A stretch of 64,000 nucleotides of DNA, taken from the NCBI GenBank assembly GCA_000002445.1, contig CP000069.1:1024001-1088000 (forward strand), written 5' to 3'. Shown in pieces: positions 11,581-64,000 of this stretch (within the stretch, counting starts at the first letter, position 1; every line of letters begins with the position of its first letter). The stretch is from Trypanosoma brucei. Its lineage: Eukaryota. A program made the position numbers and the translations under genes. The notes beneath the pieces were generated by a model. It searched no databases and was not told the DNA's origin. It saw only the letters and a list, made by a program, of their open reading frames with translations.

Positions 11581-11603
11581 CCCCCCCCCCCCGCCCCCCT
11601 CCC
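11581..11603. repeat. C12-G-C6 homopolymer tract followed 40 bp later by (TA)10 at 11641-11661
   Basis: Direct reading. Confidence 0.95.
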
Positions 11604-29995: not shown

Positions 29996-30018
29996 AGGGG
30001 AGGGGAGGGGAGGGGAAG
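29996..30018. repeat. (GGGGA)4 G-run repeat
   Basis: Direct reading (gaggggaggggaggggaggggaag). It lies in the 2.9-kb spacer between the P4-ATPase and the REI1-like gene. Confidence 0.9.
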
Positions 30019-31074: not shown

Positions 31075-31098
31075 ATATATATATATATATATATATAT
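31075..31098. repeat. (AT)12 microsatellite
   Basis: Direct reading. Confidence 0.95.
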
Positions 31099-32158
31099 CA
31101 CAATTAGAACCAATTTGCCCACTTAAATATATTTATCTCTTTCGTCACCTTGACCTCTTACACCTCAGAATCCTATTTCCGTATGTTTATGTTTATTTGC
31201 TTCCGGTTCACCGGCAATTTGGCGTCGGATGCAATACAAAACGAAACCTGACTTTACCATAATCAACATTAAGTAGAAACAAAAATAAAGAAAGAAAAAG
31301 GGAGTTTTTATTTATTTTTTTAAAAAAGGTTAAGACGAATGTTCGTGACAACTATTTCTTCTCTTTTTTAAAAAAATTCCACCATTATCCACCCGCTAAT
31401 TCGATTGCACTTTTCAGTTTTATTTATCCTTATACACGACGTGGCATGCTATATCAAACCAGTGCTTTTCCTCTCAAAACCCTTCTGCTATTGTACCTCC
31501 TGCTCCTAACTTACTTATATTTTCTGCACATGTATAGACAAATACACGTAAATTTGCTATAAACAGGCGAATAAATGAATGAATAGACGGTTATGTAGCA
31601 ATTTTTTTGTTATAATAATATTAATAATGAAACTAACAGCAAGAATTGCATTCATCTACATTCTCTTTCCTCGCTTTCCTTAATTTTCCCTCACTACCCT
31701 CAACTAATGACAACCATTAGCATCCTCAGAGCCCCCTTTTTTATTGTTTATTTACTTTCTTTTTAGTGCACCAAAGGAAATCAAGCAGAAAAACAACAGA
31801 AAGAATACAACACAAAAGAGTAAACCGCAAGGAATCAAAGATGATGACGCCAATAAACAGTATCAAACAGGAATCAAAAAACAAAGCGATCATCAACTAA
31901 TAATAGTGCGACCTCCTATAACAAAATAAATAAATAAATAAACGCTAGACCAGGGAGCTGTGGAGTGACAGCAGAAAGGTAAAAGCACCGAGTTTAAATT
32001 TGAGCAAAACCGAAGTGTGAAATCACAGGTAGAGTCAGCGGTGGTGGTTCAGGGGGCGCCAAGCAAAATTATTAAAAGAATGTTACAAAATAATGTAACG
32101 AAACGAAGCCCTATCACTATTATCCCTTTTCCTTTCCACGAAACGTAAACCACGGTTT

Positions 32159-44310: not shown

Positions 44311-47052
44311 CTACGTTTCTTCCTTTTCGTCCAAGTTGTGTGGTGTAAGTAACTTTAAAATCAACTGCAAATCAAACTCCCTCAGCAACCCAAAGTGGGG
44401 AGAACGCACATACCAACTCAGAGCAAGAGGAAGTTCACCGGCATATTTGCCGCGACTTGTTAGACTCTTCGGCAGAACGCCAAGTAATGCCCGAGCGGCC
44501 TCATAAGAACCGTTAATTCGCGTGCGGTTCTTCTCCACAAAGTCATTTAATGTCATTACAGCATCCACTTTGGTCAAACTACGCCGCGGCGCCTGCCAGC
44601 ACGGAATTCCTTCCTTTTGCAAAAGAAACTCAGACGATAAGTTGCGTCTCGGATCCCATTCAAGTCCTGCCCGCACACTATCATGCGTTGGGCACCGCAA
44701 CACGGCAAATGTCAATTCGAGAGATTTGACGAGAGACTCAAGGCGGTTGTTATACAGCGACCATAGGCGCGTTGCTAGCTCTTGCCGAGCAGTGGGTGAA
44801 GAAACCTCAACGAAGCGATCCCCAACTGTTATGACATAACCTGTCGGCAGTTTCTGCAGTGACACGAATCCCGAGGCGGAGAGGTCATCAAGCCTAAAAT
44901 TAAAATCATTGAGAGACATATTCAACGCATTCGCTGCATTCACAACGCTCTCCATTCGCTTGTTGTTTCGACACGTCTCGAAAACACCATCTAACGCCTC
45001 GAGCTGAGCCAATGCGCTGCCAACACCCGATTGAACGTCCCGATCCCGCTTGCGCTTTCCACTTGTTGTTGTGTTGATTTCAGTAGACCAACGGATGACA
45101 CGATAACCAGTTGGTGACGTTCCATGGCATGCGGTCAAGACTCCACTTTCCAGTGTAAGCATCATGAAAAGAACAGTTTCCACCGTCTCTTCGCTCATCA
45201 TTAGCTCTTCCGAAATCTTTGACACAGACACCACGATAAGTTTGTCTCCAAACCTAGTAACGGGGCTGGAGAGAATGTGAGTCACAACCGACAGCATCTC
45301 CGTGGGGGACACCAGGGAGGAAAGCAGGCGAGAGCGCAGTGCATAAAAGTCGTATGGGTTGTACAAAAGTCTGCAAATGGATAATTTGCCATCACGTCCA
45401 GCGCGACCAGTTTCTTGGACGTAGCTTTCTATTGAGCTTGGCACCGACGCGTGAACCACAGAACGAATATTTGGCTTATCAATGCCCATTCCAAACGCAA
45501 CAGTCGCAATCAGTACGTCAATCCGATCATGCATAAACTGATTTTGGCACTTTGTTCGGGCATGCCGTTCGAGTGCTGCATGATAACTTTGGATTACGAG
45601 GGGTCTCCCTTCAACACCAGAAGTGATATTTTCCACCGTTCCGTTTTGTATCTTTTCATGAGTGGCGCTGGTAAACAATAAAGAACGTGTTTTATCCCCC
45701 TTTTTCCTCGCTTTTCCATTTTGTGCAGCCCCCAGCTTGGACGAGAGAAATTTAGCCAGTTCATCGGCGTCGGCCCGAGTTTGTACGTACACAAGCATCG
45801 GTTTTGGAAGCTCGAGCACTGTCTGCAACAGCTTCTCCCGCAAATCACTGTGAGTGGGAGGAGAGTCCTTCGTTACGTTTTCACTCAGGAGAGAAACTGC
45901 CTCCAATTGGAGGTTTGCTCGCTGATAGGGTACAACGACTGTTCGCCTAATATTGAATGTCGACTGCAAATCATCGATTACTGATGGCGTTGCCGTTGCT
46001 GTGAGACAAAGAAATGGGGGAGAAAAATCTCCTCCCAAGACTATATCTTCAAGCACACGATGAACGTACAGGAAGGATGGTCGAAAATCATACGCCCATT
46101 GGGAAACACAATGGGCCTCATCAATGCATATGAATGCGATACGGTGAACTTGACCCTTCAGTACTTGCCGAAGCTCACGGTGACGTACAATCTTTTCAGG
46201 TGATAGAAAAACCAAGTCAATATTACACACTGGGGAAGACAAACTTTCCAAGAGATCTTTATCACGTGCACCCGAGGTAGCTGAGGAAAGAATAACTGCC
46301 TTCAAGGAGCCATCCTTCGTAATCCTTTCAACCTGATCGGCCATTAACGACAGCAAGGGAGAAACGACCACACCAAATCGGGAGCACGGCGCCGTATATT
46401 CCGGTAACGATACATTTTCTAATTGCTTCTGTTTCCACAACATGAGCTTCTGCTGAAAGAGCAGTCTGTGAACAAGAATTGGCACCTGAAAGCAGAGCGT
46501 CTTTCCCCAGCCAGTGGGAAAGACAGCAAGAGTGCTTTCCCCTTGCAAAATGGCAAGCACAGCCTCTTGTTGTCCTTCACGGAACTCGCCCGAGGACACA
46601 CCCAAGTGGCTCTGTAACAAGTAGCTGCAAATGGGTATTGTCGAAGTGTTGGAACGTGGAGTTTCCTTGAACAGTCTTTCTAAAGTAACCTGCAAAATGC
46701 TCTTGTCGTCCTCGTCAACACCCTTTCGAATACAATTCATGGGGAAAGCCGCATTGGCAGGTAGTCCAACTGGGTTCTCATCTTGTGGCACTGAATGAGC
46801 GACATGACAAACTGTGAGTCCATTGCTGTTATTTCTATGGTCTGAAGGAGGAGTGTTGCAGAAAGTTGATGCTCGACGTGGCGCCAAAAACGGAACACGC
46901 ATCAAATACTCCTCTTCCTCCTTCTCTTCCTCTGTATTATTCTTTTCATCGTGTACGAGCTCCACATTAACAGGGGTTAAGGCTTCCCCTTCAGAAGGTG
47001 TGTTGTCGCTAGCTACATCGTCGAAAAGAATCTCTTCATAACTATTTTGCAT
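44311..47052 (-). CDS. RecQ-family ATP-dependent DNA helicase
   Basis: The ORF-track start at 47097 is TTG. The first ATG is at 47050-47052 (MQNSYEEILFDD...). Helicase motif I is FPTGWGKTLCFQVP. Motif II plus the RecQ signature is DEAHCVSQWAYDFRP. Motif III is CLTATATPSV, and motif VI is QETGRAGRDGK. An acidic low-complexity N-terminal region is present. Confidence 0.9.
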   Translation of the reverse strand: MQNSYEEILFDDVASDNTPSEGEALTPVNVELVHDEKNNTEEEKEEEEYLMRVPFLAPRRASTFCNTPPSDHRNNSNGLTVCHVAHSVPQDENPVGLPANAAFPMNCIRKGVDEDDKSILQVTLERLFKETPRSNTSTIPICSYLLQSHLGVSSGEFREGQQEAVLAILQGESTLAVFPTGWGKTLCFQVPILVHRLLFQQKLMLWKQKQLENVSLPEYTAPCSRFGVVVSPLLSLMADQVERITKDGSLKAVILSSATSGARDKDLLESLSSPVCNIDLVFLSPEKIVRHRELRQVLKGQVHRIAFICIDEAHCVSQWAYDFRPSFLYVHRVLEDIVLGGDFSPPFLCLTATATPSVIDDLQSTFNIRRTVVVPYQRANLQLEAVSLLSENVTKDSPPTHSDLREKLLQTVLELPKPMLVYVQTRADADELAKFLSSKLGAAQNGKARKKGDKTRSLLFTSATHEKIQNGTVENITSGVEGRPLVIQSYHAALERHARTKCQNQFMHDRIDVLIATVAFGMGIDKPNIRSVVHASVPSSIESYVQETGRAGRDGKLSICRLLYNPYDFYALRSRLLSSLVSPTEMLSVVTHILSSPVTRFGDKLIVVSVSKISEELMMSEETVETVLFMMLTLESGVLTACHGTSPTGYRVIRWSTEINTTTSGKRKRDRDVQSGVGSALAQLEALDGVFETCRNNKRMESVVNAANALNMSLNDFNFRLDDLSASGFVSLQKLPTGYVITVGDRFVEVSSPTARQELATRLWSLYNNRLESLVKSLELTFAVLRCPTHDSVRAGLEWDPRRNLSSEFLLQKEGIPCWQAPRRSLTKVDAVMTLNDFVEKNRTRINGSYEAARALLGVLPKSLTSRGKYAGELPLALSWYVRSPHFGLLREFDLQLILKLLTPHNLDEKEET

Positions 47053-47097
47053 CTTATGTGTGCCTGCCCTCCAAAGGCTGCTTCCCAGTGCAGGCAA

Positions 47098-47324: not shown

Positions 47325-50300
47325 CTAAATGATCTCATCGCAAAATTGGACGACACTGGCATCGGCATCTGAGTCTGTTTCATACAGGTCCCTCTTGTTG
47401 TTCACTTCATCCGAATCATTCTCAGCATCACAACACTCACCATTTCCCTGACTTTCCATATTCCTCCGTGCAACCATTGCTCCAGCCTCACAGCGTCTAC
47501 GTTCCAGTTGTAAAACAAGTTTTGCATTGGGATCATGGAAGGGGACGTGATACCGGAACCCTAATGGAGTGAGCGTGCAACTACCGTCACGGATCACACA
47601 AAGACCCCGTTCCTGGCAGGCGAGAAGGGCATCGTAGACACTGGTAAATGAAGTTCTAGCTAATGTATCCTGTGGGAGTACACGCATGGCGGTGCGAACC
47701 TCAACCATAGGCAACGGGTTAGGGAAAACTTCGTTTCGTTTTAGTGAGTAATCGAAAAGATTCAGAATGGGGGTAACCCGCTTGTGGAAAGAAGCACCAT
47801 TACTGAGTGCAGTATCAGCCGTCGCAACCTGCGTCAAAGAACTTTGTTTTTTTGCTTTATTATCGACATCATCCGTGTTTTCAACATCCTCAGCTGTTGA
47901 TTTGACAAGTTGCATCACACTCTCCCAAAACGTCGGCTTTTCATTTCCAAATGTTGCATGTTCAGCATCCTCCACACTTTCACAACTTGGCACTCTCTCG
48001 ACATTCGCACTTTTAGCGCCGATGGTACAGCCCACACCATCGGTGGGATGTATATCTCCTGGTACCTCACGGTTACCCGTTACGACATACTCCAACAACG
48101 CGTCCTGTGTCATGGTGGAAATATAATGGCGAAGTGTGTTCATTATGGTCATTACTCGCGCAGAACTGAGTTGAAGAGACTCAAGAAATGACGACATTCG
48201 AGATATGGCACCAAAATGGATCCTATACAGCCGTAAACGCTCCTTTTGTTCAACTTCTTTGGCATTTTTGGTTTTTACATTCATTTCGGTAAGAGTCATG
48301 AGAGCCTTTTGCATATTTTCTTGCGCTAGCAATCTCTCCCGAGTATGCCTTTCCTCCCTTTCCCGAAGCCGCCCCTCTCTGATATTTTGTATAAAGGCGT
48401 GCTCCCTCTCCCGTGATTCGTTACGTAATCTTAAGTTTTCCTCAAACTCCGCTGCCTTTTTGAGAATTTCCTCTGTTCTCTGTACAGACGCAAACACCTG
48501 CACTCTCATTGCCTCTTCCTCACGTCTTTGCTGCTCCTCACGCCCCCGGCACCGTAACTCCATGGAACTCAATAAGCAACGCTGCATGTTTAAAAAAGCA
48601 CTAAGTAACAGTTGATCATTCAATTCTCCCTCATCGATCGCCCTTTCGACAGCTGAAGCCAGCAGCGACGCGGCCAATTCATCTTCAGAGACAGCACAAA
48701 CCAGCTCCATCATTTGTTCCTGACCAATAAAACTAAGAACAAGTCCAATTGATTGCGTAGGTGACGGGAAACCATTCACTACATAAAAATTTTCTAGCAG
48801 GGGTACACCGCCAAGCCAAACATTAAGAAGTGATTTGTAGACGCCTAGCGAAAACTGTTGCGAGGTGTAGCTCTCCGGAAGGCGCAGCGCCAGAAGTCCA
48901 CAGCACTGAAGCTTGTGAGTAACTTGCACTGCCGCTATCAGCGCCGTGTTACTTTTGTGCCCTAATTTAGCGGTAACACTAGCTCCGTCGCGATTTTCAA
49001 CACTCCCTTCACAAGGCACCCAGATGTATAAGGTTGACAAAAGTGCATGAAGAAAACACTCCCAAGTTGCAGTGGGGGGTCGTGCTCGTCCATCAAAACT
49101 GTTTTTTACGGCAAGAAGCAAACTTGCAATCGACTCAATTGCTTTTTTAATCATTTCGTACATAGACCCATTAGAGGATGGTGACAGCCATATAACGAGA
49201 CAGAGGGCTTCCAAAATGAAGCCGCAGCGACAACATATGTCATCTTCTGCTCGCTCACAGTTTTGCTGATGGGATTGGCTCGTTTTGCCCTTCTCACTCC
49301 TTTTCTTCCCTCCAGAGGCACTCGGCTGTGCGCAGCTTATTGCTGCGGCAGGTGTTTGCTGTGAATCAATCAGCGTCAATAGTTTCTCCAGTAGTGCCAT
49401 TGCATGTGTGGGCGACAGAATACCCGACTCAACTAAGTTTAACTCCCGAACAACGTCAATCTTATGTCTAAGCCGTATACACTGTGAAAGAATGGATAAA
49501 GGTTTCACAAACCGATCAGTTTTTTCCGCAGTCGATGGAACTATGAGCGATGCGTTCACGACAGCACACCACAATCGTGCCTCCAACTCAATAGAGCAAG
49601 CAGATAATGCATCTTCTCTCCACTTAGCTAGTACTCTGTACAAGAAAACATACACCAAAACGCTACCAAACGCATCTTCATTTCTTACAACACGATTCAC
49701 GCAGTATCGTAGAAGGCGTTCGAGGCGCTCAGCTGCCCATGTTGTCAATGGATTCTCCAAGAACACCAATTCCGTCAAGAGGGACATTTTCTCACCATGT
49801 GTTTGTACAATGTCGATGAACACGTCCAACACTGGTACATCCAAACAAGGTATGAGTGCCATGGGGTGCAATGAGGGAATCAAGTGATCGCCGTACACAC
49901 CAAGGATTCGCGATGCCAACTCAGCATCACTTCCAACGACATGTTGGAACTTCTCGACACCATTCATCAATGATAAAAGCAGTTTTACACAATCTTGTGG
50001 AAGGACCACATCAAGTGCGGCGCGGATCATGACTTTAGGGACGAGAAAAGAAGACGTCTCGCGCTCGCCGTTCCCACTGCCCTGTGGTACTTCTTTTTTT
50101 GGTGTCCCCTTCACCTTCTCTGTGCGATTTCTTCGACCCTTTGTCTTTTCATTCCCAGTTTTGCACGCTGTCTGTGGTAAACTGAAGAAAAAGCACATCG
50201 AGTCCACATCCAGTGCTCCCGTCAGAGCGAACAACTTCAAAGTCAACGGCGAGTTTGGAAGAACCTCCTTTGCATCCTTTAATGTGGAATGAAGCGGATA

Positions 50301-50660
50301 CGATGACAATCCGTGCACATAGCAAAGCCCCTCGAGCAACAGTTCCATCAACTGGGGACACGGTTGCCTTCCCTCTGAGCCACTCCTTAGCGACGCACAA
50401 AGAACGGGGAATATCATGTTGATCTCCTCACATTTATCAAGCGCAGACACACGACCTCTACGTTGAAGATGGTTCAGTAAACTAATTAAATTTTGCGCCA
50501 TTGAGCGGCAACAGGGCGACGATGGGTTGGGAAAAGGTGGACGCCCAAGTGCATCATCCAGCTGCCGAACTGCCAAACACGCGTGTGTTTTAACCTCGTC
50601 CACCGTCAACCTGTCGAGTTCATCCGCATTGAAAACTTGCTGTGATGTCGCAAAATTCAT
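47325..50660 (-). CDS. conserved-looking hypothetical protein (1111 aa) with central E/R-rich coiled coil; no recognisable domain
   Basis: Long ORF on the same strand as its neighbours with coding-like composition; ATG at 50658-50660 checked. A coiled-coil block runs about aa 690-790 (RGREEQQRREEEAMRVQ...EREERHTRERLL). I could recognise no catalytic motif. Confidence 0.7.
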   Translation of the reverse strand: MNFATSQQVFNADELDRLTVDEVKTHACLAVRQLDDALGRPPFPNPSSPCCRSMAQNLISLLNHLQRRGRVSALDKCEEINMIFPVLCASLRSGSEGRQPCPQLMELLLEGLCYVHGLSSYPLHSTLKDAKEVLPNSPLTLKLFALTGALDVDSMCFFFSLPQTACKTGNEKTKGRRNRTEKVKGTPKKEVPQGSGNGERETSSFLVPKVMIRAALDVVLPQDCVKLLLSLMNGVEKFQHVVGSDAELASRILGVYGDHLIPSLHPMALIPCLDVPVLDVFIDIVQTHGEKMSLLTELVFLENPLTTWAAERLERLLRYCVNRVVRNEDAFGSVLVYVFLYRVLAKWREDALSACSIELEARLWCAVVNASLIVPSTAEKTDRFVKPLSILSQCIRLRHKIDVVRELNLVESGILSPTHAMALLEKLLTLIDSQQTPAAAISCAQPSASGGKKRSEKGKTSQSHQQNCERAEDDICCRCGFILEALCLVIWLSPSSNGSMYEMIKKAIESIASLLLAVKNSFDGRARPPTATWECFLHALLSTLYIWVPCEGSVENRDGASVTAKLGHKSNTALIAAVQVTHKLQCCGLLALRLPESYTSQQFSLGVYKSLLNVWLGGVPLLENFYVVNGFPSPTQSIGLVLSFIGQEQMMELVCAVSEDELAASLLASAVERAIDEGELNDQLLLSAFLNMQRCLLSSMELRCRGREEQQRREEEAMRVQVFASVQRTEEILKKAAEFEENLRLRNESREREHAFIQNIREGRLREREERHTRERLLAQENMQKALMTLTEMNVKTKNAKEVEQKERLRLYRIHFGAISRMSSFLESLQLSSARVMTIMNTLRHYISTMTQDALLEYVVTGNREVPGDIHPTDGVGCTIGAKSANVERVPSCESVEDAEHATFGNEKPTFWESVMQLVKSTAEDVENTDDVDNKAKKQSSLTQVATADTALSNGASFHKRVTPILNLFDYSLKRNEVFPNPLPMVEVRTAMRVLPQDTLARTSFTSVYDALLACQERGLCVIRDGSCTLTPLGFRYHVPFHDPNAKLVLQLERRRCEAGAMVARRNMESQGNGECCDAENDSDEVNNKRDLYETDSDADASVVQFCDEII

Positions 50661-51114: not shown

Positions 51115-52434
51115 CTACGATGCTAGTTCTAGCAAGAAAGCGTAAGAGTAGCAGCCAGCCTCCACTGCTGGTAGCGTTGGGTAATCAATGGATGGCCCAA
51201 AGAAGCGAAGGAGTCGCGCTCTTAAACCATGCTCAGCGGTTACTCTGTTAAAAACGTTGAACATTTCACTCCGTGTGGCACGAACAACAGAAGCCGCCAC
51301 ACCACCTCCGGATGCCACATAATCATGCATTCCAAGCAATGCCACTTCCTGCGCTACGACTACAATAGAACCTTTGCCACAAACACCTCGAAACAACATG
51401 ACCTTCAACAAATTTTGCCACTGCTCAGGTGAAGACAGTGTGTCGAAACGGTGCTCCAGAAAAACAACATCCTGCTGACGCATGCTTAGTTCTTCGATAG
51501 GTGAATTTGTCGTTTCACAAGTGTTGAAAACAGCACTTGCATGGTTTGCTACCAGGTTTTCACGCACTCGGTTAAGGAGTGACTCATCTGATTCCGCGAA
51601 AACAACACTTTTCGCCGTCATTACTGCTTGAAGTGCAGCAGCTCCACCACGATCGTTAACACACAAAACGCGCTTACCATGGCATAAATCCCTAAGTACG
51701 GCACGTATTCGACGATGGGCTGTGTTGATAAGCCAACGATTACTTGATGTGGTGGGATATTCATCTCTTGGCAACCACATGTTACTCGCGCCATTTTCCA
51801 TGTATGTTTCGGGTAGAGTTATGGTTGGAGTAATAAGAGTTAGCTTTTCGTGATCCTTTAGGTGTGGAGTATCCAATAGTACCTCTTCGACTCCGTGCTG
51901 CCGCAGCAATTCGGTTACCGCAGGAACAATCCGTTCTGCACCCGCAGATGTTGCAACCACTCGCGCAAAGCTGGAAGAAAAGAGATCAACGTAAAGAGAG
52001 GGAACACCATCTGCATAACCATTCACGACGCGGTAGGCATTGGTGCTGCCGGTCCTTACATGACGGAAAACAGATTGTCGTCGCCCCCACGCCTCTTTAA
52101 CGCGATTAACGAAAAAATCCTCACTAATCCTTGGTAGGTCCGTCACTACTTTAGGTGTATGGTGAAAAATATCAACACGCAGCAGCGCTGGTTCATAAAA
52201 TGCCAGCGCTAGCAGCTTCCGGTGATCCGCATCTCTTAACTCCACAACACTTCCTGGTTCTATCTCACGTCGAGCAAAGTCAAGACTATGAGAATCGAAG
52301 GAGCTCAGCGGAATGGAAAGTTGTCGGCCACACGTGACTCGTCGCTGCTGTCCCACACGTAGTTGCAGTTGCGGAAACTTTTCTGCTGGTGTGAGTCTGT
52401 GGGTAAGCAATGGTGTAAACACCTTGGACCACAT
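51115..52434 (-). CDS. class I SAM-dependent methyltransferase, RlmI/PUA-like
   Basis: The ORF-track start at 52497 is TTG. The first ATG is at 52432-52434 (MWSKVFTPLL...). The N-terminal region is PUA-like. The segment VVNGYADGVPSLYVDLFSSSFARVV resembles the RlmI motif (E/D)GLPGL(V/I)VD(R/Y)YGD. Rossmann motif I-like is VLCVNDRGGAAALQAV, followed by the acidic strand-2 end VVFAESD. Confidence 0.5.
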   Translation of the reverse strand: MWSKVFTPLLTHRLTPAEKFPQLQLRVGQQRRVTCGRQLSIPLSSFDSHSLDFARREIEPGSVVELRDADHRKLLALAFYEPALLRVDIFHHTPKVVTDLPRISEDFFVNRVKEAWGRRQSVFRHVRTGSTNAYRVVNGYADGVPSLYVDLFSSSFARVVATSAGAERIVPAVTELLRQHGVEEVLLDTPHLKDHEKLTLITPTITLPETYMENGASNMWLPRDEYPTTSSNRWLINTAHRRIRAVLRDLCHGKRVLCVNDRGGAAALQAVMTAKSVVFAESDESLLNRVRENLVANHASAVFNTCETTNSPIEELSMRQQDVVFLEHRFDTLSSPEQWQNLLKVMLFRGVCGKGSIVVVAQEVALLGMHDYVASGGGVAASVVRATRSEMFNVFNRVTAEHGLRARLLRFFGPSIDYPTLPAVEAGCYSYAFLLELAS

Positions 52435-52931
52435 GGCAGCTGGAAGTTGTGTCCTCCTCCTATGTGTTAATGTTTCTTCCCTTATACTACCGCACAATAT
52501 TTTTCCTTTATTGCACGGCTATATTCATCCGTTCATTCATTGTTCGTCCGATTAATTCACAAATGGCGGTCCCGGACACAAGAAAGATCAAAATATGTGG
52601 AGAAAAAAGAGGGGGACAGCAAGGATGTGACCATAAAAAGCAAGTTTGAAAAAGAAAATGACGTGCACACCGCAGAGTCCAATGATCAGTACACCTACAG
52701 GTACACCAAAAAAAAAAGTATAAGGAATAAAGGGATAATGATGAAAAAATAGAGAACTGTGTTGGAGCACTGACCGGAAAAACCGACCGTCCCCAATTAA
52801 TGGCAAGAAATTGGTTTTTTTTGTCGCATAAGTACACGCAGGACAACTGCATCCACTAGTACACCGCCGCTTCACACATGTAGTGTCAAGCATCACTGCA
52901 CGCGGGAAAATGAAGAGAAAATCATTCGATA

Positions 52932-53969
52932 TCATTCGAAGTGGTCGTGCTCACCTCCTGCAACTTCACGAGAAAACAAATAACGCGATTCCCACATATA
53001 ATCCTCATCCTCTTCTTCATCGGTGAGTTCATTGGCATTTGTGAAAGAATTACGGTGGCTACGAGGAAACATTCTCTTGCCTTTGTGTTCTCCATAGTCA
53101 AGTGTGAGTTCCTCGCCCACATTAATATCCCTTGCAGCCCGTACAACAACTGTAGCAGTTGGAAGCGACACACAAGCAGCACATGCAGGTGATGAGGCAC
53201 TGTGATTTAACATGTCAACAATTGGTACGATGGCTGACGTTACCGTATCTGTCCTAACGTCATCCGTCCGTATCACCTTCAATTTAAGCACACGAGCACG
53301 CACAACGTAGATGGAAGTAAGAATGGCACTGTCCAATTCGGACGGATGGGCATCGTAAAATCTGTACTCCTCCTGAGGGGCATGTAATAATATGCAATCT
53401 CGCAGATTCCACGCGATCTGCTCGATGGTGGAGTGCACATTTGACCCACACCCACCTTCCGAAAAGTATGGTGCCTCCAAACCATAAGAAAGATACTCAG
53501 TTAAAGGAAGGGAGCTTACGTATAAATCCGCCTTGCGATCTTTTACAGGTCCTAAAGAAGGATTTCCAATACCGACACGAGTTTTGAGTTTCATGACGCT
53601 CTGCCAAAAGTACCGAAGCGCAATGGACACGGCAAGCGACGCCTCCACGGGGGAGAGTGTTAGGGTTACAACTTCATTTTCGTCTGTTGACACGGACGCG
53701 GTAAGTGAAACGCGGTCTTGAGGAAAATCGGGCGACAGTCGCCACAGCCACATCGTTGCCTCGGGGAAAAGTGTGGACCGGTTCCAGCGGCGTAAAGTGC
53801 GAGGGACACGAGACGCATGAGGGAAATAACAGTTACGAGAGGGAACAGAGAGCAACAAATCCCCTTTTCGAAAACAACGGCGCGCGAATAATCCACGGAC
53901 GCTATCATGTCCCCGTCTCGCTTGTAACATAGGTGCCGCACGAGCCCCCAACATGTGAAGCAGCGTCAT
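52932..53969 (-). CDS. SET-domain protein (putative protein lysine methyltransferase)
   Basis: 345-aa ORF; ATG at 53967-53969 checked. SET N-region is CFRKGDLLLSVP. An NHS-type motif occurs in MLNHSASSPACAACVS. The C-terminal motif is ELTLDYG. It has an acidic tail. Confidence 0.75.
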   Translation of the reverse strand: MTLLHMLGARAAPMLQARRGHDSVRGLFARRCFRKGDLLLSVPSRNCYFPHASRVPRTLRRWNRSTLFPEATMWLWRLSPDFPQDRVSLTASVSTDENEVVTLTLSPVEASLAVSIALRYFWQSVMKLKTRVGIGNPSLGPVKDRKADLYVSSLPLTEYLSYGLEAPYFSEGGCGSNVHSTIEQIAWNLRDCILLHAPQEEYRFYDAHPSELDSAILTSIYVVRARVLKLKVIRTDDVRTDTVTSAIVPIVDMLNHSASSPACAACVSLPTATVVVRAARDINVGEELTLDYGEHKGKRMFPRSHRNSFTNANELTDEEEDEDYMWESRYLFSREVAGGEHDHFE

Positions 53970-56057: not shown

Positions 56058-57287
56058 CTAGTGAATCACCTTGTCGATACAGCGCACTTGTGTCCTTGTT
56101 CCCAAGAGCATCACTGAGGTGTCGAAAGCAGATGATGCATCATCGTTTCCACTTAGTGTCAGTTGCTCTACTTTCAGGCTACCAGTATCACAACTTCTCT
56201 GCCGTAAAGAGCTATGGTACGGATCCGGTGTAGTGCTGCCACTCGCATTATTCCAAAGTACCTCGACACTGGGAAGACTATACACTTCTGCTGGCGATGC
56301 AAATGATACACAATTAAGTACCTTCGGCTCAGCAGTCGAGGTGTTTACAACATCACAGTGTCGATGGAAGTTGCAGCTACCTACGTTTCGTTGCCTAATC
56401 GAAGCCTCCAACTGCGCCACGCGCAACTGTGTCGCATGTAGCTCCTCCTGAAACTTTTTAATTATCATTTCTTGCTCCACCTGCTTTCTTTGCAGGGAAA
56501 TGTTGATATCGTCAGGGGGAGGTGAACATGGCTGACTTGCCACAGGTAACGCTGCATTACCAGTGGAAGCTAACATGGCATTGTCATTCTTGTTTTGTTT
56601 ATTGCAACGTTGCTCGTTTGTCACGAACTCACGCAAAAACGCCAAATCGTGCTTAATTTGTGACACCTCCGCCATCAGTGGGTCATTTGACGCCTCAATT
56701 GCAGCTGATGATTCTGGTGGTGATGCGGTGGCTTCTTCTGTTAATGGATAGTGTTGGACCCTACGGTGACGTTTTATCATGTGAGAATTTAAGGATGAGT
56801 TAGAGGGATAGCTGTTGCCACAATATAAACAAGTGTGTAGCTGCTCCGTTATTCGAGAATGACCCCTCCAGCGTTCGTGCGCGACCTTACGATTAGTTGG
56901 GGAAGCGTCTTGTCGTTTCACGCCGCTCATGGAAACAATCTCTCGCAGTTCCGCCAGTTCTGCAAACACCCGATCACTTTCCTCACGCATGTCACGAAGT
57001 TTTTCTTCAGCTCTTTTTGCCTCAGTTTCCAGCATTTGCTGGCGGTACGAAAGGTACTGAATGGTGCACTGCATCGTACGACTAACTCGCCTCACCAAGT
57101 GATATGCCCTTTTTGAGAAAAACCATTCCAGAGGGAGGTCAAGTTCCTGCCAGCCGATTTGTCGTATCATTGATTCTTTCATTGACGTCTGAGTTCCTTC
57201 CTCAGAGCTGTAAAGCGCAGGCCCATCCACAACGGAAAGAAATGCAATATCACATGGTGGCTGGTGCAACTTAAATTCAAAACCCAT
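56058..57287 (-). CDS. C2H2 zinc-finger / coiled-coil protein
   Basis: The ORF-track start at 57434 is TTG. The upstream 49 codons translate the telomere-like and low-complexity leader. The first ATG is at 57285-57287 (MGFEFKLHQPP...). A coiled coil is RQQMLETEAKRAEEKLRDMREESDRVFAELAELREIV. One classical C2H2 finger is CLYCGNSYPSNSSLNSHMIKRH. A second coiled coil follows. Confidence 0.6.
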   Translation of the reverse strand: MGFEFKLHQPPCDIAFLSVVDGPALYSSEEGTQTSMKESMIRQIGWQELDLPLEWFFSKRAYHLVRRVSRTMQCTIQYLSYRQQMLETEAKRAEEKLRDMREESDRVFAELAELREIVSMSGVKRQDASPTNRKVAHERWRGHSRITEQLHTCLYCGNSYPSNSSLNSHMIKRHRRVQHYPLTEEATASPPESSAAIEASNDPLMAEVSQIKHDLAFLREFVTNEQRCNKQNKNDNAMLASTGNAALPVASQPCSPPPDDINISLQRKQVEQEMIIKKFQEELHATQLRVAQLEASIRQRNVGSCNFHRHCDVVNTSTAEPKVLNCVSFASPAEVYSLPSVEVLWNNASGSTTPDPYHSSLRQRSCDTGSLKVEQLTLSGNDDASSAFDTSVMLLGTRTQVRCIDKVIH

Positions 57288-57295
57288 CGCCGCGA

Positions 57296-57325
57296 GTCTA
57301 AACCCAACCCTAACCCTAACCCCCC
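57296..57325. repeat. interstitial telomere-like hexamer repeats, (CCCTAA)~3 degenerate (taaacccaaccctaaccctaaccccc)
   Basis: Direct reading of the sequence. It is the complement of the TTAGGG repeat unit and lies in the 5' leader of the C2H2 zinc-finger gene. Confidence 0.85.
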
Positions 57326-57857
57326 TCATCAGTTCATTAACAATGCAAATAAAGGGTAAATAAAAAGACACACATACACATAGACTTGAGAATAACTCAC
57401 ACGTGTAGAATACGAAGTAACAAGCAAAAAACAATTAACGGAGCGACCAATACAATTCGTCGGCGTGAGGGGGGGAAGTCATGGCAATTACCAACTTATG
57501 TAGACCTCATGGGCAAAAAGTGTTTCGACCAATATATATGTATACTCTGTACTCTCAACGATAAAAGAGAATACGCATACGAATGCGCCCTCGTTCTGAC
57601 AAACTCAACGATATCACCAAATTATAGTCGCACAAGGGTGTTGTTCTGTCTCCACCAGTAAAAACGGAAGGTGACATTATTCCTCAGGCAGCACTATCTT
57701 ATTCCCATTTCACACTCACAGTGATGAGACCGAGTGAATGGGTGTACGGCTATTTCCTCCGAGGAAGGTAAAATAGTTAGGTATCTTTAAGAAATTATAT
57801 AAAAAACCCTTGGGAAACACCAATAAAAAAAGCGCATCTCGGCATAACCAACTTTTT

Positions 57858-59474
57858 CTAATGTTCGGTGCTGTAGTACTTGTTGAGAAATTCTTTTAAC
57901 ACATCCTTTATTATAGTTCTGTCGCTTACCTTCTGCTGTGATCCGTAAATAGTTGATTTAGCGTTGACAGCACCGTGGCGTCGGCCATTCTTCGTTGCAT
58001 CCTCATATTCCGCAAACATTCTGCCACCAATCTCCGTAACGTCCTCTATAAAGCGATCAGCAACTTCCCCAACCGTCTGCAGTAGCGTGACAGAAAATTG
58101 GAGACCAGATGGAAATTGCAAGCAGTTCAGAACCCAACCTCGGCTACGCAACTCTTCGTTTAAAACGAAAATGTCAATTATGTTACTTCCAAAGGCAAAA
58201 ACACAAGCGGTTGGTTTCCCAATAATGTGTATGTAAGGCAGTTTGGATAACGCATCCGTGATCCTAATCCTCGTTTGTACAATCTTCCGGCAGCAGTCCA
58301 CATAACCCTCCTCTCCGAGTCGTACCATTGATGCCCAGGCGCCAGCAATGACGCTTCCATTCTTTGAACCACAAACTGCTGGGGAACAGTACATGCCACC
58401 AGGCCAGTCCGCTACGCAACAGAACTGGTGGGACCGCAACTCCTGTGTTCTGTAGAGAACAGTCGATGTACCTTTGGGAGCAAAACCATACTTGTGTGTA
58501 TCACAACTGATGGAAGTAACCCCGGGGAGGCGGAAGTCCACAACCGGTGCCGGTAACCCCGCCTTCGCCATGAATGGCACAATGAAACCACCCAAACAAC
58601 AGTCAACATGAAGACCAACGTTGTGCCGGCATGCAATCTCTGACAACTCCTCTATGGGATCAATGACACCGTGAGGAAATGTTGGTGCCGATCCTACAAT
58701 AGCGACTGTGTCATATCTGATGTACTTCTCCATTTCTTTCGCGTCAACCTGCTTCGTGATCGGATCGACAGGTATCTTTACAAGATTAATGCCAAAATAT
58801 TCCGCACCCTTATCAAATGCTGGGTGTGCTGTGATGCCGACAATAACAGAAGGTCGCTCGATCCCCCGGCGAGCCCGTCCCCAATCACGATATGCCTTTA
58901 GAGCCATAACAATACTTTCCGTACCCCCCGATGTAACGGTACCACATGCGTCGGGAAGTAGGTGGCCGTTGAACATGTGAACGACCATCGACACCACCTC
59001 AGCCTCCATTTTACGCACAGCCCCAAAAACATCAGAATGCAGCGGGTTGCTCCACGCAAACATCTTAACAACACGGTTCAACAATTTAGTATGGGAATGC
59101 TCTCCATGATACACTGCGCCGCTTAGAGTGCCATCCTCAAAGGTTTTATCGAGATTTTGGTGAAACTCACTAACCAGGTTGATCACCTCCTCATCTGAAA
59201 AACCCTCCTTCGGTAGCCGTTTGGCTTTAAATTCTCCAGGTTTTGACGGCATCTTTATGCCTTCGGCACTTTTCTTTACTTCCTTCTTTATAATGGGCTC
59301 TACAAAGAACCTCACAACGCGCCACTTTGCGGCATGTAACCGCTTAATGATGCTGCCGTCACGTGCCACATAAATTAGGACTTTGGTTGCAAAGATAGCG
59401 CCGACGGTGAGACACACGATGTGTGACGGTCTTTTCCCCTGAAGACTCCTGTCCAAAAAGCATGACAGCGACAT
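57858..59474 (-). CDS. SPL: sphingosine-1-phosphate lyase (PLP-dependent, group II decarboxylase fold)
   Basis: 538-aa ORF; ATG at 59472-59474 checked. The N-terminal TM anchor is IVCLTVGAIFATKVLIYV. The glycine-rich motif GTVTSGGTESIVMALKAYRDW is present. The PLP-lysine motif SISCDTHKYGFAPKG is present. Overall length and order match the S1P lyase family. Confidence 0.9.
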   Translation of the reverse strand: MSLSCFLDRSLQGKRPSHIVCLTVGAIFATKVLIYVARDGSIIKRLHAAKWRVVRFFVEPIIKKEVKKSAEGIKMPSKPGEFKAKRLPKEGFSDEEVINLVSEFHQNLDKTFEDGTLSGAVYHGEHSHTKLLNRVVKMFAWSNPLHSDVFGAVRKMEAEVVSMVVHMFNGHLLPDACGTVTSGGTESIVMALKAYRDWGRARRGIERPSVIVGITAHPAFDKGAEYFGINLVKIPVDPITKQVDAKEMEKYIRYDTVAIVGSAPTFPHGVIDPIEELSEIACRHNVGLHVDCCLGGFIVPFMAKAGLPAPVVDFRLPGVTSISCDTHKYGFAPKGTSTVLYRTQELRSHQFCCVADWPGGMYCSPAVCGSKNGSVIAGAWASMVRLGEEGYVDCCRKIVQTRIRITDALSKLPYIHIIGKPTACVFAFGSNIIDIFVLNEELRSRGWVLNCLQFPSGLQFSVTLLQTVGEVADRFIEDVTEIGGRMFAEYEDATKNGRRHGAVNAKSTIYGSQQKVSDRTIIKDVLKEFLNKYYSTEH

Positions 59475-60720: not shown

Positions 60721-62406
60721 TCAGCACGACACAATCAAGGATTCCTTGGGGTAGAGGATGAAACAGGGAGATATTCGCGGATGAAGGCTAGTAACCAGAT
60801 TTCCGTAGTACTTTCCATTTACATTAATGCCGAGTGAACCTTCATCTACGCTATATGTGAAGGTCAAAACGTCACCGATACAACACACAGGTAATTCCTT
60901 GAAGGATTGACCAATTCTACCAATGCCTCCATCAACAACACCGAGTTTTGTGGGTTTCCAGTAGAACCCTCCTGGAACAAGGGAAGTGTCTGTCCTTTCA
61001 ACCACACCGACAAATGATTTGTCAAACCCCTTTCCGAGCTGGACACGCCACGTCACACGCCCACGCTCCTCAGGAAACAAGCGCGCAATTTCCTCCACAG
61101 TTTGTTCAGTACGGATACCAATTTGCTTTAAACTATCGGCTTCATTGGGCTGAGCAGTTACATGAACGACACTGTTCAACACCTTCAAGTCAATGCCTTC
61201 ACGCTCCGTTAATGTGAAGCGTCTACCTGTTCGCAGTGGTATCATGCTACCGTCTTGTGCGCAAACATTCAACACTTTTCCCGATTGTGGTCGGGAATCG
61301 TCATCCACTTGTGAATGTGGAATACATCTCCTGAGGTTTGTGTCCCTTCTAATGCCGTTTTTGGAATGTTCTTCCGACCTCAAATCTAGAAATAATTTAA
61401 ATTGAGGTAAACCAAAATCACCAACCTCAAAAAACTTAAAACCAAGCCCTTCTACATCCGGAGTTTCTTCACTGAGGTGGTACGAAAGATATGATCGATT
61501 CTCTAATATCTTATAATCTGAACAACCGCGTTTCATGTGTTGCAGTAGAACAACCGACTCATTAATAGCATTTGCTTTTGCCAACACCCTTCCCCTACAT
61601 TGATTTAAGGAGGCATGGCCGGTATCGCACAACGACCCGAGGGCTTCAAGAAGCTCCTTTTCACGTTGTGACACCATCATCTGTAGTTGGCTAAAGCGTT
61701 CTTTTATTGATTTCTTAACCTCCTCTAAGGAGTCAAAGTATCTTGTCGTCACGACATTTAACTGATTCACCTTCTTTTCTAATCTCTCCTTCTTGTCTGT
61801 CATGAGGGTAATCTCACCGGGAGCTCTATTCCTAAATATGGCAGCCGCCTCTGGTACGCTAATGCTTTCATGACCGTTATGAGGGCCGGTGAGCAAACAA
61901 TATGCGCAGCAAAGACTTTCACAAACCTTGCAGTAAAACTCTAATCGATACTCTTCATGGCCTTGAACGCCGCAGCATCTATAAAGCTTTCGTGTTTCTT
62001 GAGCGTCATCAAGTGGGAAAAATGTATGGTGGCGCTTCGTGGCGTTTTTGTGCACAGCAGTGTTGCAATCCATGCAATAAGCGCCTGCACATTCATCACA
62101 TTGTATCGCAGCAGCAACCTCTTGGCACCATTGGCAAACCGGTTGCTGGGCGAGGCCCTCAACTCTCGCCTTAACGTAAGCCCTAAGTTCATTGTCCACT
62201 AATTTCGGTAATGTTTCATTGTTAATGTGCTCCTGTTTGGTGCTACAAAGAAGGCAAATGAAATCTCTACCTTCCAAGCATTCCAACCTCCCTAGCACAC
62301 AAGATGCGCAAAAGCTGTGTTTGCAGCTGAGCGTGACGGGATCGTGAAGAATTCCAAAACATATCCCGCAGGTAATAGTGACTGGTATCCCCGGAACCTC
62401 CGTCAT
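60721..62406 (-). CDS. TRIM-like protein: RING finger, two B-box-like zinc fingers, coiled coil, C-terminal SPRY (B30.2-like) domain
   Basis: 561-aa ORF; ATG at 62404-62406 checked. RING is CGICFGILHDPVTLSCKHSFCASCV...C..C. B-box1-like is CQWCQEVAAAIQCDECAGAYCMDCNTAVHKNATKRHH. B-box2-like is CCGVQGHEEYRLEFYCKVCESLCCAYCLLTGPHNGH. The coiled coil covers about aa 200-270. SPRY-like beta-sandwich region is WRVQLGKGFDKSFVGVVERTD...GDVLTFTYSVDEGSLGINVNGKYYGNL. Confidence 0.8.
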   Translation of the reverse strand: MTEVPGIPVTITCGICFGILHDPVTLSCKHSFCASCVLGRLECLEGRDFICLLCSTKQEHINNETLPKLVDNELRAYVKARVEGLAQQPVCQWCQEVAAAIQCDECAGAYCMDCNTAVHKNATKRHHTFFPLDDAQETRKLYRCCGVQGHEEYRLEFYCKVCESLCCAYCLLTGPHNGHESISVPEAAAIFRNRAPGEITLMTDKKERLEKKVNQLNVVTTRYFDSLEEVKKSIKERFSQLQMMVSQREKELLEALGSLCDTGHASLNQCRGRVLAKANAINESVVLLQHMKRGCSDYKILENRSYLSYHLSEETPDVEGLGFKFFEVGDFGLPQFKLFLDLRSEEHSKNGIRRDTNLRRCIPHSQVDDDSRPQSGKVLNVCAQDGSMIPLRTGRRFTLTEREGIDLKVLNSVVHVTAQPNEADSLKQIGIRTEQTVEEIARLFPEERGRVTWRVQLGKGFDKSFVGVVERTDTSLVPGGFYWKPTKLGVVDGGIGRIGQSFKELPVCCIGDVLTFTYSVDEGSLGINVNGKYYGNLVTSLHPRISPCFILYPKESLIVSC

Positions 62407-62800
62407 CGTTGAAGAGGTACTGCCGCAATGAGCGGTTCAGGGGTGGAAAGAAAAAAAAAAAAAGAAAGGAACCACAAACGGAACTCGCTTTTACCTCTAA
62501 CGGGAGAATAATCTAGGGGGTTTAATCCAGTCTTTTTTTCCCCTCCTCAGGTGATGAAGAATTGAAGCGAACAACTTTTTAAAAAAGCAGTCAGTAGGGG
62601 AGAAGAATGAAAATAAAAGTGTGGCGAGTACTCAAACAAGCAGCGGACCATTCAACACACAGAGCGAGGGCAACCAGAAAGAGGGAGGGGGAAAGGGGAA
62701 AGGGAAGGTGGATGAGTTTAACGTGCTCAAAAGAAATAGGGGAGAAGAAAACACCCACAATTATGCCGCAAAAAACTTTCTTAACAAACACCACTGTGCT

Positions 62801-63818: not shown

Positions 63819-64000
63819 TTACGGGGCACAAGTGCTAAGTATCCATGCCACGCCTTCCTCCAGTCCTGCTCCCGTTTTGGCGCTACAGCCTTGGATGTGC
63901 CACTTGCGGTCTCGGAAGTCATGCAAATGAAGGCATTCTGCGATCGCCTGAGCATCTTTTGCGGTTGCAAGATCTTGTTTATTCGCAAACACCAAAACCG
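63819..64000 (-). CDS. ARF-like small GTPase (ARL2/ARL3-like), C-terminal 59 codons only; gene continues beyond the right window edge
   Basis: It is not in the ORF track because there is no start codon inside the window. Minus-strand frame from 63998 down to the TAA at 63819-63821 gives [59 protein letters not shown]. This contains the G4 NKxD box (ANKQD) and the G5 CSAKTG box with ARL-typical IQGCSA.TG.GL...G..WL. Confidence 0.7.

What the first reader, a model, noticed from the sequence alone, without database searches (positions are those of the whole stretch)
60721..62406. Full TRIM-type domain order (RING, B-box, B-box, coiled coil, SPRY) in a kinetoplastid
The tripartite motif followed by a B30.2/SPRY domain is usually regarded as a metazoan innovation (the TRIM E3 ligases). 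Here all elements are recognisable in the canonical order in a protist gene. They are a C3HC4 RING, two B-box-like zinc-binding modules, a ~70-aa coiled coil and a SPRY-like C-terminus. This is either deep ancestry or convergent assembly, and it makes the protein a candidate E3 ligase with a substrate-recognition SPRY domain.
Basis: partly seen in the sequence, partly recalled or inferred. Interest (0 to 1): 0.55.

Follow-up and report, generated by a model that had tools for sequence, protein, structure and literature searches.

The report
TRIM-type RING–B-box–SPRY protein in trypanosomes
This Trypanosoma brucei gene encodes a protein with the full domain order of animal TRIM ubiquitin ligases (RING, two B-boxes, coiled coil, SPRY), and the family is conserved across Euglenozoa, so this layout is not confined to animals, although what the protein does is untested.

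Summary
Window 60721-62406 (minus strand) is a 561-aa ORF identical to T. brucei TREU927 XP_845482.1 / Q585W2, annotated only as a conserved hypothetical or zinc-finger protein.

Pfam finds a C3HC4 RING (13-54), two B-boxes (91-127, 145-179) and a PML/TRIM-type coiled coil. All 24 zinc ligands are conserved in 22 orthologs. The family profile aligns collinearly, in one stretch, with the whole RBCC of TRIM28 (E 7e-14).

The family occurs in trypanosomatids, diplonemids and a euglenid, always as RBCC followed by SPRY, which argues against recent transfer from an animal host.

The most likely function is a dimeric TRIM-like RING E3 ligase whose SPRY recruits substrates. This is inferred, not shown. 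A non-catalytic scaffold role, as in Toxoplasma Pcr4/Pcr5, remains possible.

It is a new, non-metazoan member of a known kind. Whether the SPRY fusion is ancestral or independent is unresolved. Interest is moderate.

The parts
60721..62406 (-). Complete ORF, 561 aa plus stop (stop codon 60721-60723). T. brucei TREU927 XP_845482.1 / Q585W2.
   Evidence: 100% identity over full length.
62245..62370 (-). C3HC4 RING finger, residues 13-54: C13-x2-C16-x11-C28-x-H30-x2-C33-x2-C36-x14-C51-x2-C54.
   Evidence: zf-C3HC4_2 28.2 bits (cut-off 27) and zf-C3HC4 22.6 (cut-off 21); ligands conserved in 22 orthologs; aligned to the RINGs of TRIM5/21/25/30/31/72.
62026..62136 (-). B-box type 1, residues 91-127: C91-x2-C94-x8-C103-x2-C106-x4-C111-x2-C114-x4-H119-x7-H127.
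   Evidence: ANCHR-like_BBOX at 90-128 and the first of two zf-B_box stretches; residues 86-182 align to the MID1 tandem B-box1-B-box2 structure 2jun (E 4.9e-12); all eight ligands invariant.
61870..61974 (-). B-box type 2, residues 145-179: C145-x4-H150-x8-C159-x2-C162-x4-C167-x2-C170-x5-H176-x2-H179.
   Evidence: best zf-B_box stretch at 145-183; aligned to B-box2 of TRIM72, TRIM3 and MID1/2; ligands invariant. This is the most conserved segment (majority fraction 0.78).
61471..61857 (-). Coiled-coil / helical region, residues 184-312 (helices 184-239, 246-294, 297-312).
   Evidence: PML_CC 23.2 bits (cut-off 23) and a weak TRIM_CC hit. AF2 helices; heptad periodicity 3.55, z=6.7 for 184-239; collinear alignment to the TRIM28, TRIM72 and TRIM3 coiled coils up to position ~310.
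61378..61458 (-). Conserved family-specific motif, residues 317-343 (consensus P.V.G.GF+...LGD....GL...LDL). It is predicted as two short strands at low confidence and its role is unknown.
   Evidence: G320, F323, G329, L340 and D341 are invariant; majority fraction 0.63, as conserved as the folded domains; pLDDT about 41-47; also recognisable in the diplonemid and euglenid relatives.
61240..61377 (-). Hypervariable, probably disordered linker, residues 344-389.
   Evidence: pLDDT 26-40; majority fraction 0.22 and length 34-89 aa among orthologs; much longer in P0033 and P0036.
60724..61239 (-). Divergent SPRY-fold domain, residues 390-561. Canonical core motifs are W453 ('VTWRVQL'), GD511-512 and the '...N-G...' strand.
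62420..62470 (-). Polypyrimidine tract (62441-62470) followed by an AG (62420-62421), 14 nt upstream of the ATG. Probable trans-splice acceptor region (inferred).
   Evidence: Read directly from the sequence. The functional assignment rests on general knowledge of trypanosome mRNA processing and was not tested.

Best explanation
The gene encodes a TRIM-type (RBCC) RING E3 ubiquitin ligase with a C-terminal SPRY domain.

By analogy with solved TRIMs, the long helix after B-box2 would form an antiparallel coiled-coil dimer. That dimer would place a RING/B-box1/B-box2 head at each end. The two SPRY domains would hang from a flexible linker near the middle.

The RING would recruit an E2~ubiquitin conjugate. 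The SPRY would bind the substrate or partner. The B-boxes would mediate higher-order assembly or regulation.

Shown here: the identity, order and conservation of all five modules; the en-bloc collinearity of the RBCC with animal TRIMs; the SPRY fold; and conservation of the whole architecture across Euglenozoa.

Inferred, not shown: dimerisation, ligase activity, the substrate and the cellular role.
For: Domain hits above Pfam cut-offs for the RING, B-box and PML_CC.

One continuous HMM alignment of family-profile positions 12-310 to the TRIM28/KAP1 RBCC construct 6h3a (E 7.1e-14). There are further hits to TRIM72, TRIM3 and the MID1 B1-B2 tandem.

The best Foldseek hit of the full-length model is full-length TRIM72, 7xt2 (E 8e-9, 460 columns).

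All zinc ligands are conserved, as is the hydrophobic residue before the second RING Cys (CG[IL/M]C). Pro follows C51 (CP.C) in most orthologs, although T. brucei has Leu.

Every family member with a complete N-terminus carries RING plus B-boxes, and the SPRY is always at the extreme C-terminus.

The general TRIM mechanism (the RING recruits E2~Ub, RINGs sit at the ends of a rigid antiparallel coiled coil, the C-terminal domain binds substrate) is taken from PMC7752041.
Against: There is no experimental or localisation data for this gene in the searchable literature.

The residue after the last RING cysteine is S/G/N/T/A, not the Arg or Lys that many active RINGs use to lock E2~Ub. That role for the residue is from my own knowledge, not a tool result. 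The family has only a very short segment N-terminal to the RING, whereas TRIM RING dimerisation uses flanking helices (PMC7752041). Catalytic competence is therefore not assured.

The dimer could not be modelled. The monomer model breaks the long helix at 240-245.

Heptad periodicity is strong only for 184-239.
Confidence: 0.65

Rival explanations
1. It is a TRIM-like structural or assembly scaffold rather than a degradative E3. The tandem B-boxes and antiparallel coiled coil would build a higher-order cytoskeletal or organelle-associated lattice. The RING and SPRY would serve as interaction modules. Possible models are Toxoplasma Pcr4/Pcr5 in the preconoidal rings, or a SUMO-type or non-catalytic role like class VI TRIMs and PML.

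For: Pcr4/Pcr5 are tandem-B-box, antiparallel coiled-coil heterodimers needed to build the rings (bioRxiv 10.1101/2022.06.06.494926).

The best whole-RBCC match is TRIM28. Its class is reported to have monomeric RINGs with no ligase activity (abstract of PMC6487577).

The family has no Arg/Lys after the last RING Cys.
Against: Pcr4/Pcr5 lack a RING. Here the RING is complete and its ligands, together with the E2-facing hydrophobic positions, are conserved across a very old family, which suggests selection on a RING function.

A scaffold role and ligase activity are not mutually exclusive. TRIM5 and TRIM72 do both.
Confidence: 0.25
2. The gene, or its TRIM-like architecture, was acquired by horizontal transfer from an animal host of the parasite. 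In that case it would say nothing about the antiquity of TRIM-SPRY proteins.
For: Sardiello 2008 raised horizontal transfer as a general caveat for B-box proteins in parasitic protists (PMC2533329). The RBCC is collinear with animal TRIMs.
Against: Full-length orthologs occur throughout trypanosomatids, including insect-only genera (Leptomonas, Novymonas, Angomonas). Relatives occur in the diplonemids Diplonema papillatum and Artemidia motanka and in the euglenid Entosiphon sulcatum. That these diplonemids and euglenid are free-living is from my own knowledge.

Similarity to animal TRIMs is remote: structural-alignment identity is 10-17% and the PDB hits are only at E 1e-7 to 1e-14 even with a profile. 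The SPRY is so divergent that Pfam misses it.

Any transfer would have to predate the radiation of Euglenozoa.
Confidence: 0.04
3. The C-terminal domain is a generic concanavalin-like or lectin beta-sandwich, not a SPRY. The protein would then be only RING + B-boxes + coiled coil with an unrelated C-terminus.
For: No Pfam SPRY, PRY or Neuralized hit in any of 22 orthologs even at E<=10. The best PDB sequence hit of the domain profile, the HERC1 SPRY, is sub-threshold (E 0.083).

Against: An exhaustive profile search hits many proteins whose matched stretch lies inside PF00622 domains scoring 30-250 bits.

The HERC1 alignment covers the canonical 'GD...D...g.l.f..NG...P' SPRY core.
Confidence: 0.03

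Closest known systems
Animal TRIM/RBCC E3 ligases with a C-terminal (PRY-)SPRY (class IV such as TRIM72, TRIM25, TRIM21; class I such as MID1, TRIM9/67)
   Same: The order is the same: RING, B-box1, B-box2, coiled coil, SPRY. The RBCC is collinear with TRIM28 in one alignment. Full-length TRIM72 is the best Foldseek hit. The TRIM67, MID1 and TRIM9 SPRYs are among the best structural matches.
   Different: Found in Euglenozoa, not animals. No PRY sequence signature and no Pfam SPRY hit. No COS box or FN3, so it is not class I. A conserved about 27-aa beta motif plus a hypervariable linker lies between the coiled coil and the SPRY. No Arg/Lys follows the last RING Cys. Sequence identity to animal TRIMs is very low.
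TRIM37-like 'Subfamily A' (RING, one B-box, (coiled coil), MATH), the only TRIM subfamily reported outside animals, including excavates (Marin 2012, PMC3503706)
   Same: A non-metazoan RING plus B-box protein, which shows that the RING-B-box core predates animals.
   Different: Subfamily A has one B-box and a MATH domain. This protein has distinct B-box1 and B-box2 modules and a SPRY, and no MATH hit.
Toxoplasma/Plasmodium Pcr4 and Pcr5 preconoidal-ring proteins (tandem B-box plus antiparallel coiled coil; PDB 9ya0)
   Same: A non-metazoan tandem B-box followed by a coiled coil. There is direct sequence similarity over B1-B2-CC.
   Different: Pcr4/5 have no RING and no C-terminal SPRY. They form a structural heterodimer in an apicomplexan-specific organelle.
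Stand-alone or non-TRIM SPRY proteins (RanBP9/RanBP10 and Gid1 of the CTLH/GID E3, SPSB1-4, HERC1, Ash2L, DDX1)
   Different: The surrounding architectures differ (LisH/CTLH, SOCS box, HECT and others). Sequence identity is only 12-16%.

Membership tests
TRIM/RBCC family | N-terminal C3HC4 RING finger | tested here: met
   zf-C3HC4_2 28.2 bits (cut-off 27) and zf-C3HC4 22.6 (cut-off 21) at residues 13-54. Eight ligands are conserved. Aligns to TRIM RING structures.
TRIM/RBCC family | One or two B-boxes directly after the RING; when there are two, B-box1 precedes B-box2 | tested here: met
   zf-B_box 34.9 bits (cut-off 24.1) with two stretches. Residues 86-182 align to the MID1 B1-B2 tandem 2jun, E 4.9e-12. 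Ligand spacings are C5(C)H2 for box 1 and CHC(C)C2H2 for box 2. The first spacing in box 2 is x4 rather than the usual x2; that consensus is from my own knowledge.
TRIM/RBCC family | Coiled coil immediately after B-box2, with the whole RBCC in fixed order and spacing | tested here: met
   PML_CC 23.2 bits (cut-off 23). AF2 helices 184-312. Periodicity 3.55, z 6.7. A single collinear alignment to the TRIM28 RBCC over profile positions 12-310.
TRIM/RBCC family | Antiparallel coiled-coil homodimer | not testable with these tools
TRIM/RBCC family | RING-dependent E3 ubiquitin (or Ub-like) ligase activity | not testable with these tools
   This needs biochemistry. The sequence shows conserved zinc ligands and E2-facing hydrophobics but no Arg/Lys after the last Cys.
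TRIM/RBCC family | Common descent with animal TRIMs (monophyly of the RBCC) | not tested
   No phylogeny was made. The en-bloc collinearity is compatible with common descent but does not prove it.
SPRY domain (Pfam PF00622 / B30.2) | SPRY beta-sandwich fold | tested here: met
SPRY domain (Pfam PF00622 / B30.2) | Match to the Pfam SPRY model at or above its cut-off | tested here: not met
   No PF00622 hit at E<=10 in this protein or in 21 orthologs.
SPRY domain (Pfam PF00622 / B30.2) | Statistically supported sequence relationship to accepted SPRY domains | tested here: met
   The family C-terminal profile, searched against 1.84 billion representatives, hits P0046 (3e-13), P0047, P0050, P0051, P0057, P0060, P0062, P0069, P0072, P0071 and P0076. 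All carry PF00622 at 31-251 bits, overlapping the matched stretch wherever Pfam's best stretch is comparable; in multi-SPRY proteins the overlap was not checked domain by domain. The top PDB hit is the HERC1 SPRY.
SPRY domain (Pfam PF00622 / B30.2) | PRY sub-domain signature preceding the SPRY (defines B30.2 in class IV TRIMs) | tested here: not met
   No PRY family appears among the Pfam hits at E<=10. The model does have three N-terminal strands (405-433) completing the sandwich, as other SPRY structures do.
Class I TRIM (MID1/TRIM9/TRIM67 type) | COS box and FN3 domain between the coiled coil and the SPRY | tested here: not met
   No FN3 or COS hit. Residues 313-389 hold only a short conserved motif and a disordered linker.
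TRIM37-like Subfamily A | C-terminal MATH domain and a single B-box | tested here: not met
   No MATH hit and two B-boxes. The definition is from PMC3503706.

The most novel reading that the evidence does not exclude
The complete RING, B-box1, B-box2, coiled-coil, SPRY architecture was already assembled in a common ancestor of Euglenozoa and animals, close to the last eukaryotic common ancestor. Differentiated B-box1/B-box2 pairs and SPRY-bearing TRIM ligases would then be ancient eukaryotic inventions that were lost or diverged beyond recognition in most lineages, rather than metazoan or vertebrate innovations.
Probability: 0.2. Interest if true: 0.6.

Novelty: new member of a known kind. Interest (0 to 1): 0.42.

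Why it matters
Reviews and the two main evolutionary surveys treat TRIMs with two B-boxes and a SPRY as animal-specific (PMC2533329, PMC3503706).

A conserved euglenozoan family with exactly this layout has three consequences.

First, either the RBCC-SPRY combination is much older than animals, or it is a favoured solution that evolved twice.

Second, it gives trypanosomatid biology a concrete, previously unlabelled candidate substrate-specific RING E3. The gene is conserved from Leishmania to T. brucei and is at present annotated only as a zinc-finger or hypothetical protein.

Third, it shows that standard Pfam-based architecture censuses undercount such proteins, because the SPRY is too divergent to be called. 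That bears directly on claims about lineage specificity.

Tried and rejected
Pfam scan of the protein and of all 22 orthologs for SPRY, PRY or Neuralized found no hit. I did not take this as refutation, because fold and family-profile evidence contradict it.

The C-terminal profile against PDB sequences gave only a sub-threshold top hit, the HERC1 SPRY at E 0.083. That is suggestive but not sufficient alone.

The word-indexed profile search with the full-length alignment returned only the same kinetoplastid orthologs. A search with the divergent relative P0054 returned only one unnamed transcriptome protein, P0083, so P0054's taxon is unresolved. Its contig has tightly packed, mostly same-strand called genes.

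Exact-sequence contig look-up for the T. brucei protein found nothing on record. I could not obtain the TriTrypDB gene ID.

Literature searches for the accession, for 'Tb927.6' plus B-box, and for trypanosomatid E3 catalogues found nothing about this gene. One hit (PMC11384636) concerns nucleotide similarities between a T. cruzi antigen gene and TRIM genes. Judging from its abstract it is unrelated, and I did not read it further.

The lectin-fold rival and the recent-transfer rival were considered and rejected (see the rival explanations).

The overlapping 80-90-aa ORFs on the plus strand and in other frames lie inside a conserved coding region. I treated them as chance ORFs.
Full report
**1. 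The observation**

Window 60721-62406 holds one 561-aa ORF on the minus strand. It is 100% identical to T. brucei brucei TREU927 XP_845482.1 / UniProt Q585W2, on a 1,618,915-bp chromosome. The same sequence in T. equiperdum is annotated 'zinc finger of C3HC4-type, RING/B-box zinc finger, putative'.

The ATG lies 14 nt downstream of an AG that follows a ~30-nt polypyrimidine tract. That is the usual context of a trypanosome trans-splice acceptor; this is an inference from general knowledge. All ORFs of at least 200 aa between 36992 and 62406, bar one 200-aa plus-strand ORF nested inside a larger minus-strand ORF, are on the minus strand, as expected for a polycistronic unit. The neighbours are functionally unrelated: a PLP-dependent decarboxylase, a SET-domain protein, a DEAD-box helicase and a TTL-family protein.

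**2. The N-terminal tripartite motif**

Pfam gives the following:
- RING at 13-54: zf-C3HC4_2 28.2 bits against a cut-off of 27, and zf-C3HC4 22.6 against 21.
- B-boxes: zf-B_box 34.9 bits against 24.1, in two stretches, with ANCHR-like_BBOX at 90-128 and the best stretch at 145-183.
- Coiled coil: PML_CC 23.2 bits against 23 at 215-311, plus a weak TRIM_CC hit.

Ligand patterns read from the alignment:
- RING: C13-x2-C16-x11-C28-x-H30-x2-C33-x2-C36-x14-C51-x2-C54.
- B-box1: C91-x2-C94-x8-C103-x2-C106-x4-C111-x2-C114-x4-H119-x7-H127.
- B-box2: C145-x4-H150-x8-C159-x2-C162-x4-C167-x2-C170-x5-H176-x2-H179.

All of these ligands are conserved in 22 orthologs, with a single H30-to-D exception in P0021.

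A profile of the 22 sequences aligns in one uninterrupted stretch (positions 12-310) to the RBCC crystal construct of TRIM28/KAP1 (6h3a, E 7.1e-14). Further hits are TRIM72, TRIM3, the MID1 B-box1-B-box2 tandem (2jun, E 4.9e-12) and many TRIM RINGs. The RBCC therefore matches animal TRIMs as a block, not merely as three separate common domains.

The AF2 model (mean pLDDT 77) has helices at 184-239, 246-294 and 297-312. Family-averaged hydrophobicity of 184-239 has a 3.55-residue period (z = 6.7; 0.1% of shuffles reach it). The rest is amphipathic with a period of about 3.6.

**3. The C-terminal domain**

This was the weak point of the finding. Pfam SPRY, PRY and Neuralized do not match this protein or any ortholog, even at E<=10. 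Three further tests settle the question.

- A profile of residues 386-561 from 15 orthologs has the SPRY domain of HERC1 (4qt6) as its top PDB sequence hit. The hit is sub-threshold (E 0.083), but it is aligned over the canonical 'GD...D...g.l.f..NG...P' core.
- The same profile, searched exhaustively against 1.84 billion representative proteins, gives only 54 hits at E<=1e-3. After the family members, the hits I scanned are proteins that Pfam calls SPRY at 31-251 bits. Where Pfam's best stretch could be compared, the matched stretch lies within or overlaps the SPRY domain. Examples are P0046 at 3e-13, P0047 at 6e-13 and single-domain P0071 at 4.9e-4.

The domain is therefore a divergent SPRY. 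A PRY sequence signature was not detected, so 'B30.2' in the strict sense is not shown, although the model has the N-terminal strands that complete the sandwich.

The full-length model's best Foldseek hit in the PDB is full-length TRIM72 (7xt2, E 8e-9, 460 aligned columns).

**4. Between the coiled coil and the SPRY**

Residues 317-343 form a family-specific motif (P.V.G.GF+...LGD....GL...LDL). G320, F323, G329, L340 and D341 are invariant, and the motif is as conserved as the folded domains (majority fraction 0.63). It is followed by a hypervariable linker, 344-389 (majority fraction 0.22, 34-89 aa long, pLDDT 26-40). The motif is also recognisable in the diplonemid and euglenid relatives. 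Its role is unexplained. It could dock on the coiled coil as TRIM L2 linkers do, or on the SPRY.

**5. Distribution**

Full-length orthologs at 33-53% identity occur in Trypanosoma (congolense, vivax, theileri, melophagium, conorhini, rangeli), Leishmania, Porcisia, Leptomonas, Novymonas and Angomonas.

The exhaustive search adds relatives from the diplonemids Diplonema papillatum and Artemidia motanka, both N-terminally incomplete sequences. It also adds the euglenid Entosiphon sulcatum (P0053: RING + B-box + coiled coil + this domain), and several unnamed environmental or transcriptome sequences (P0054, P0083, P0041, P0038).

Every member with a complete N-terminus has RING plus B-boxes, and the SPRY is always at the extreme C-terminus. 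P0033 (795 aa) and P0036 (970 aa) simply have longer linkers. P0029 (4,046 aa, with cyclin and NIF phosphatase domains upstream) looks like a merged gene model.

I found no clear ortholog outside Euglenozoa, but the tools for that survey were limited.

**6. Mechanism**

The best-supported reading is a TRIM-like RING E3. An antiparallel coiled-coil dimer would present RING/B-box heads at its ends, the SPRY would act as substrate receptor on a flexible tether, and the RING would recruit E2~Ub. The general TRIM mechanism is from PMC7752041.

Supporting sequence features are the conserved zinc ligands, the hydrophobic residue in CG[I/L/M]C, and Pro in CP.C in most orthologs.

Cautions are as follows. 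The residue after the last Cys is S/G/N/T/A rather than Arg or Lys. Its significance is from my own knowledge. The segment N-terminal to the RING is very short. Dimerisation and activity are untested.

**7. Comparison with what is known, and novelty**

Sardiello et al. 2008 concluded that the tripartite motif and the B-box1/B-box2 differentiation are metazoan innovations, and mentioned protist B-boxes only as unpublished observations, with a horizontal-transfer caveat (PMC2533329). Marin 2012 found TRIM37-like RING-B-box-MATH proteins in fungi, plants, alveolates and excavates, and kept all other subfamilies as animal-specific (PMC3503706).

The protein here is not TRIM37-like: it has two B-boxes, a SPRY and no MATH. 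It is not class I either, since it has no COS or FN3. Its formal nearest class is IV (RBCC-SPRY), but it lacks a PRY signature.

I found no paper describing it.

Recent transfer from an animal host is unlikely. The family occurs in free-living euglenozoans and insect-only trypanosomatids, and its similarity to animal TRIMs is remote.

Whether the SPRY fusion is ancestral or independent is open. The SPRY's closest structural neighbours mix non-TRIM SPRYs (RanBP9/10, SPSB, HERC1) with class I TRIM SPRYs. That does not discriminate between the two possibilities.

**8. Verdict**

This is a new, non-metazoan member of a known kind, the TRIM/RBCC-SPRY proteins. It is of moderate interest for TRIM evolution and is an unexplored candidate E3 ligase in trypanosomatids.

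Noticed in passing
window 61378-61458 (-), residues 317-343: A strongly conserved short motif (P.V.G.GF+...LGD....GL...LDL) sits between the coiled coil and the SPRY. It is as conserved as the folded domains but modelled at low confidence, and it is followed by a hypervariable linker. It matches no known domain and its role is unexplained.
   Followed up: partly
window 1-14000: A low-GC (26-42%), gene-poor stretch at the downstream end of the minus-strand gene array. The only ORF of at least 250 aa is an RRM protein at 3974-5017 (-). No tandem repeats scoring at least 200 and no tRNAs were found. It may be long UTRs or intergenic DNA, or the end of a transcription unit.
   Followed up: partly
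window 30001-32000: A second GC dip (0.34, against about 0.46 in the flanks) lies between the ORFs at 28145-29257 and 32159-35749. It was not examined.
   Followed up: no
window 63820-64000 (-): The gene upstream of the TRIM-like ORF runs off the window. Its last ~60 codons read '...VFANKQDL...' by eye, with an NKxD motif, which looks like the C-terminus of an ARF/ARL-type small GTPase (sequence). No profile search was run on it.
   Followed up: no
window 36992-62406: Every ORF of at least 200 aa here is on the minus strand, apart from one 200-aa plus-strand ORF (49285-49887) nested inside the 1,111-aa minus-strand ORF. This is one directional gene cluster. The neighbours include a TTL-family tubulin ligase-like protein (42024-43925), a DEAD-box helicase (44311-47097), a SET-domain protein (52932-53969) and a PLP-dependent decarboxylase (57858-59474). 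Three ORFs (47325-50660, 51115-52497, 56058-57434) have no Pfam hit at E<=1e-4.
   Followed up: partly
P0029 (4,046 aa; family SPRY at 3881-4045): One database protein joins a cyclin domain, a NIF phosphatase domain and a complete RBCC-SPRY unit (RING at 3171). It is most likely a merged gene model from an unannotated assembly, not a real fusion.
   Followed up: partly
L001 (ENA ERZ25333188 ctg535, 502 kb); gene at 8001-9599: The most divergent full-architecture relative (P0054: RING, B1, B2, coiled coil, SPRY-like) comes from an unnamed eukaryotic contig with tightly packed, mostly same-strand called genes. Its only close relative is an unnamed EukProt transcriptome protein (P0083). The taxon is unknown, and it could extend the family's range.
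   Followed up: partly
PDB 9ya0 chains (PCR4, PCR5, PCR14) compared with residues 82-258 and 390-561: Components of the Toxoplasma preconoidal ring resemble both halves of this protein: B-box/coiled coil in PCR4 and PCR5, and a SPRY-like fold in PCR14. This hints that B-box, coiled-coil and SPRY modules are used together in protist cytoskeletal assemblies.
   Followed up: partly
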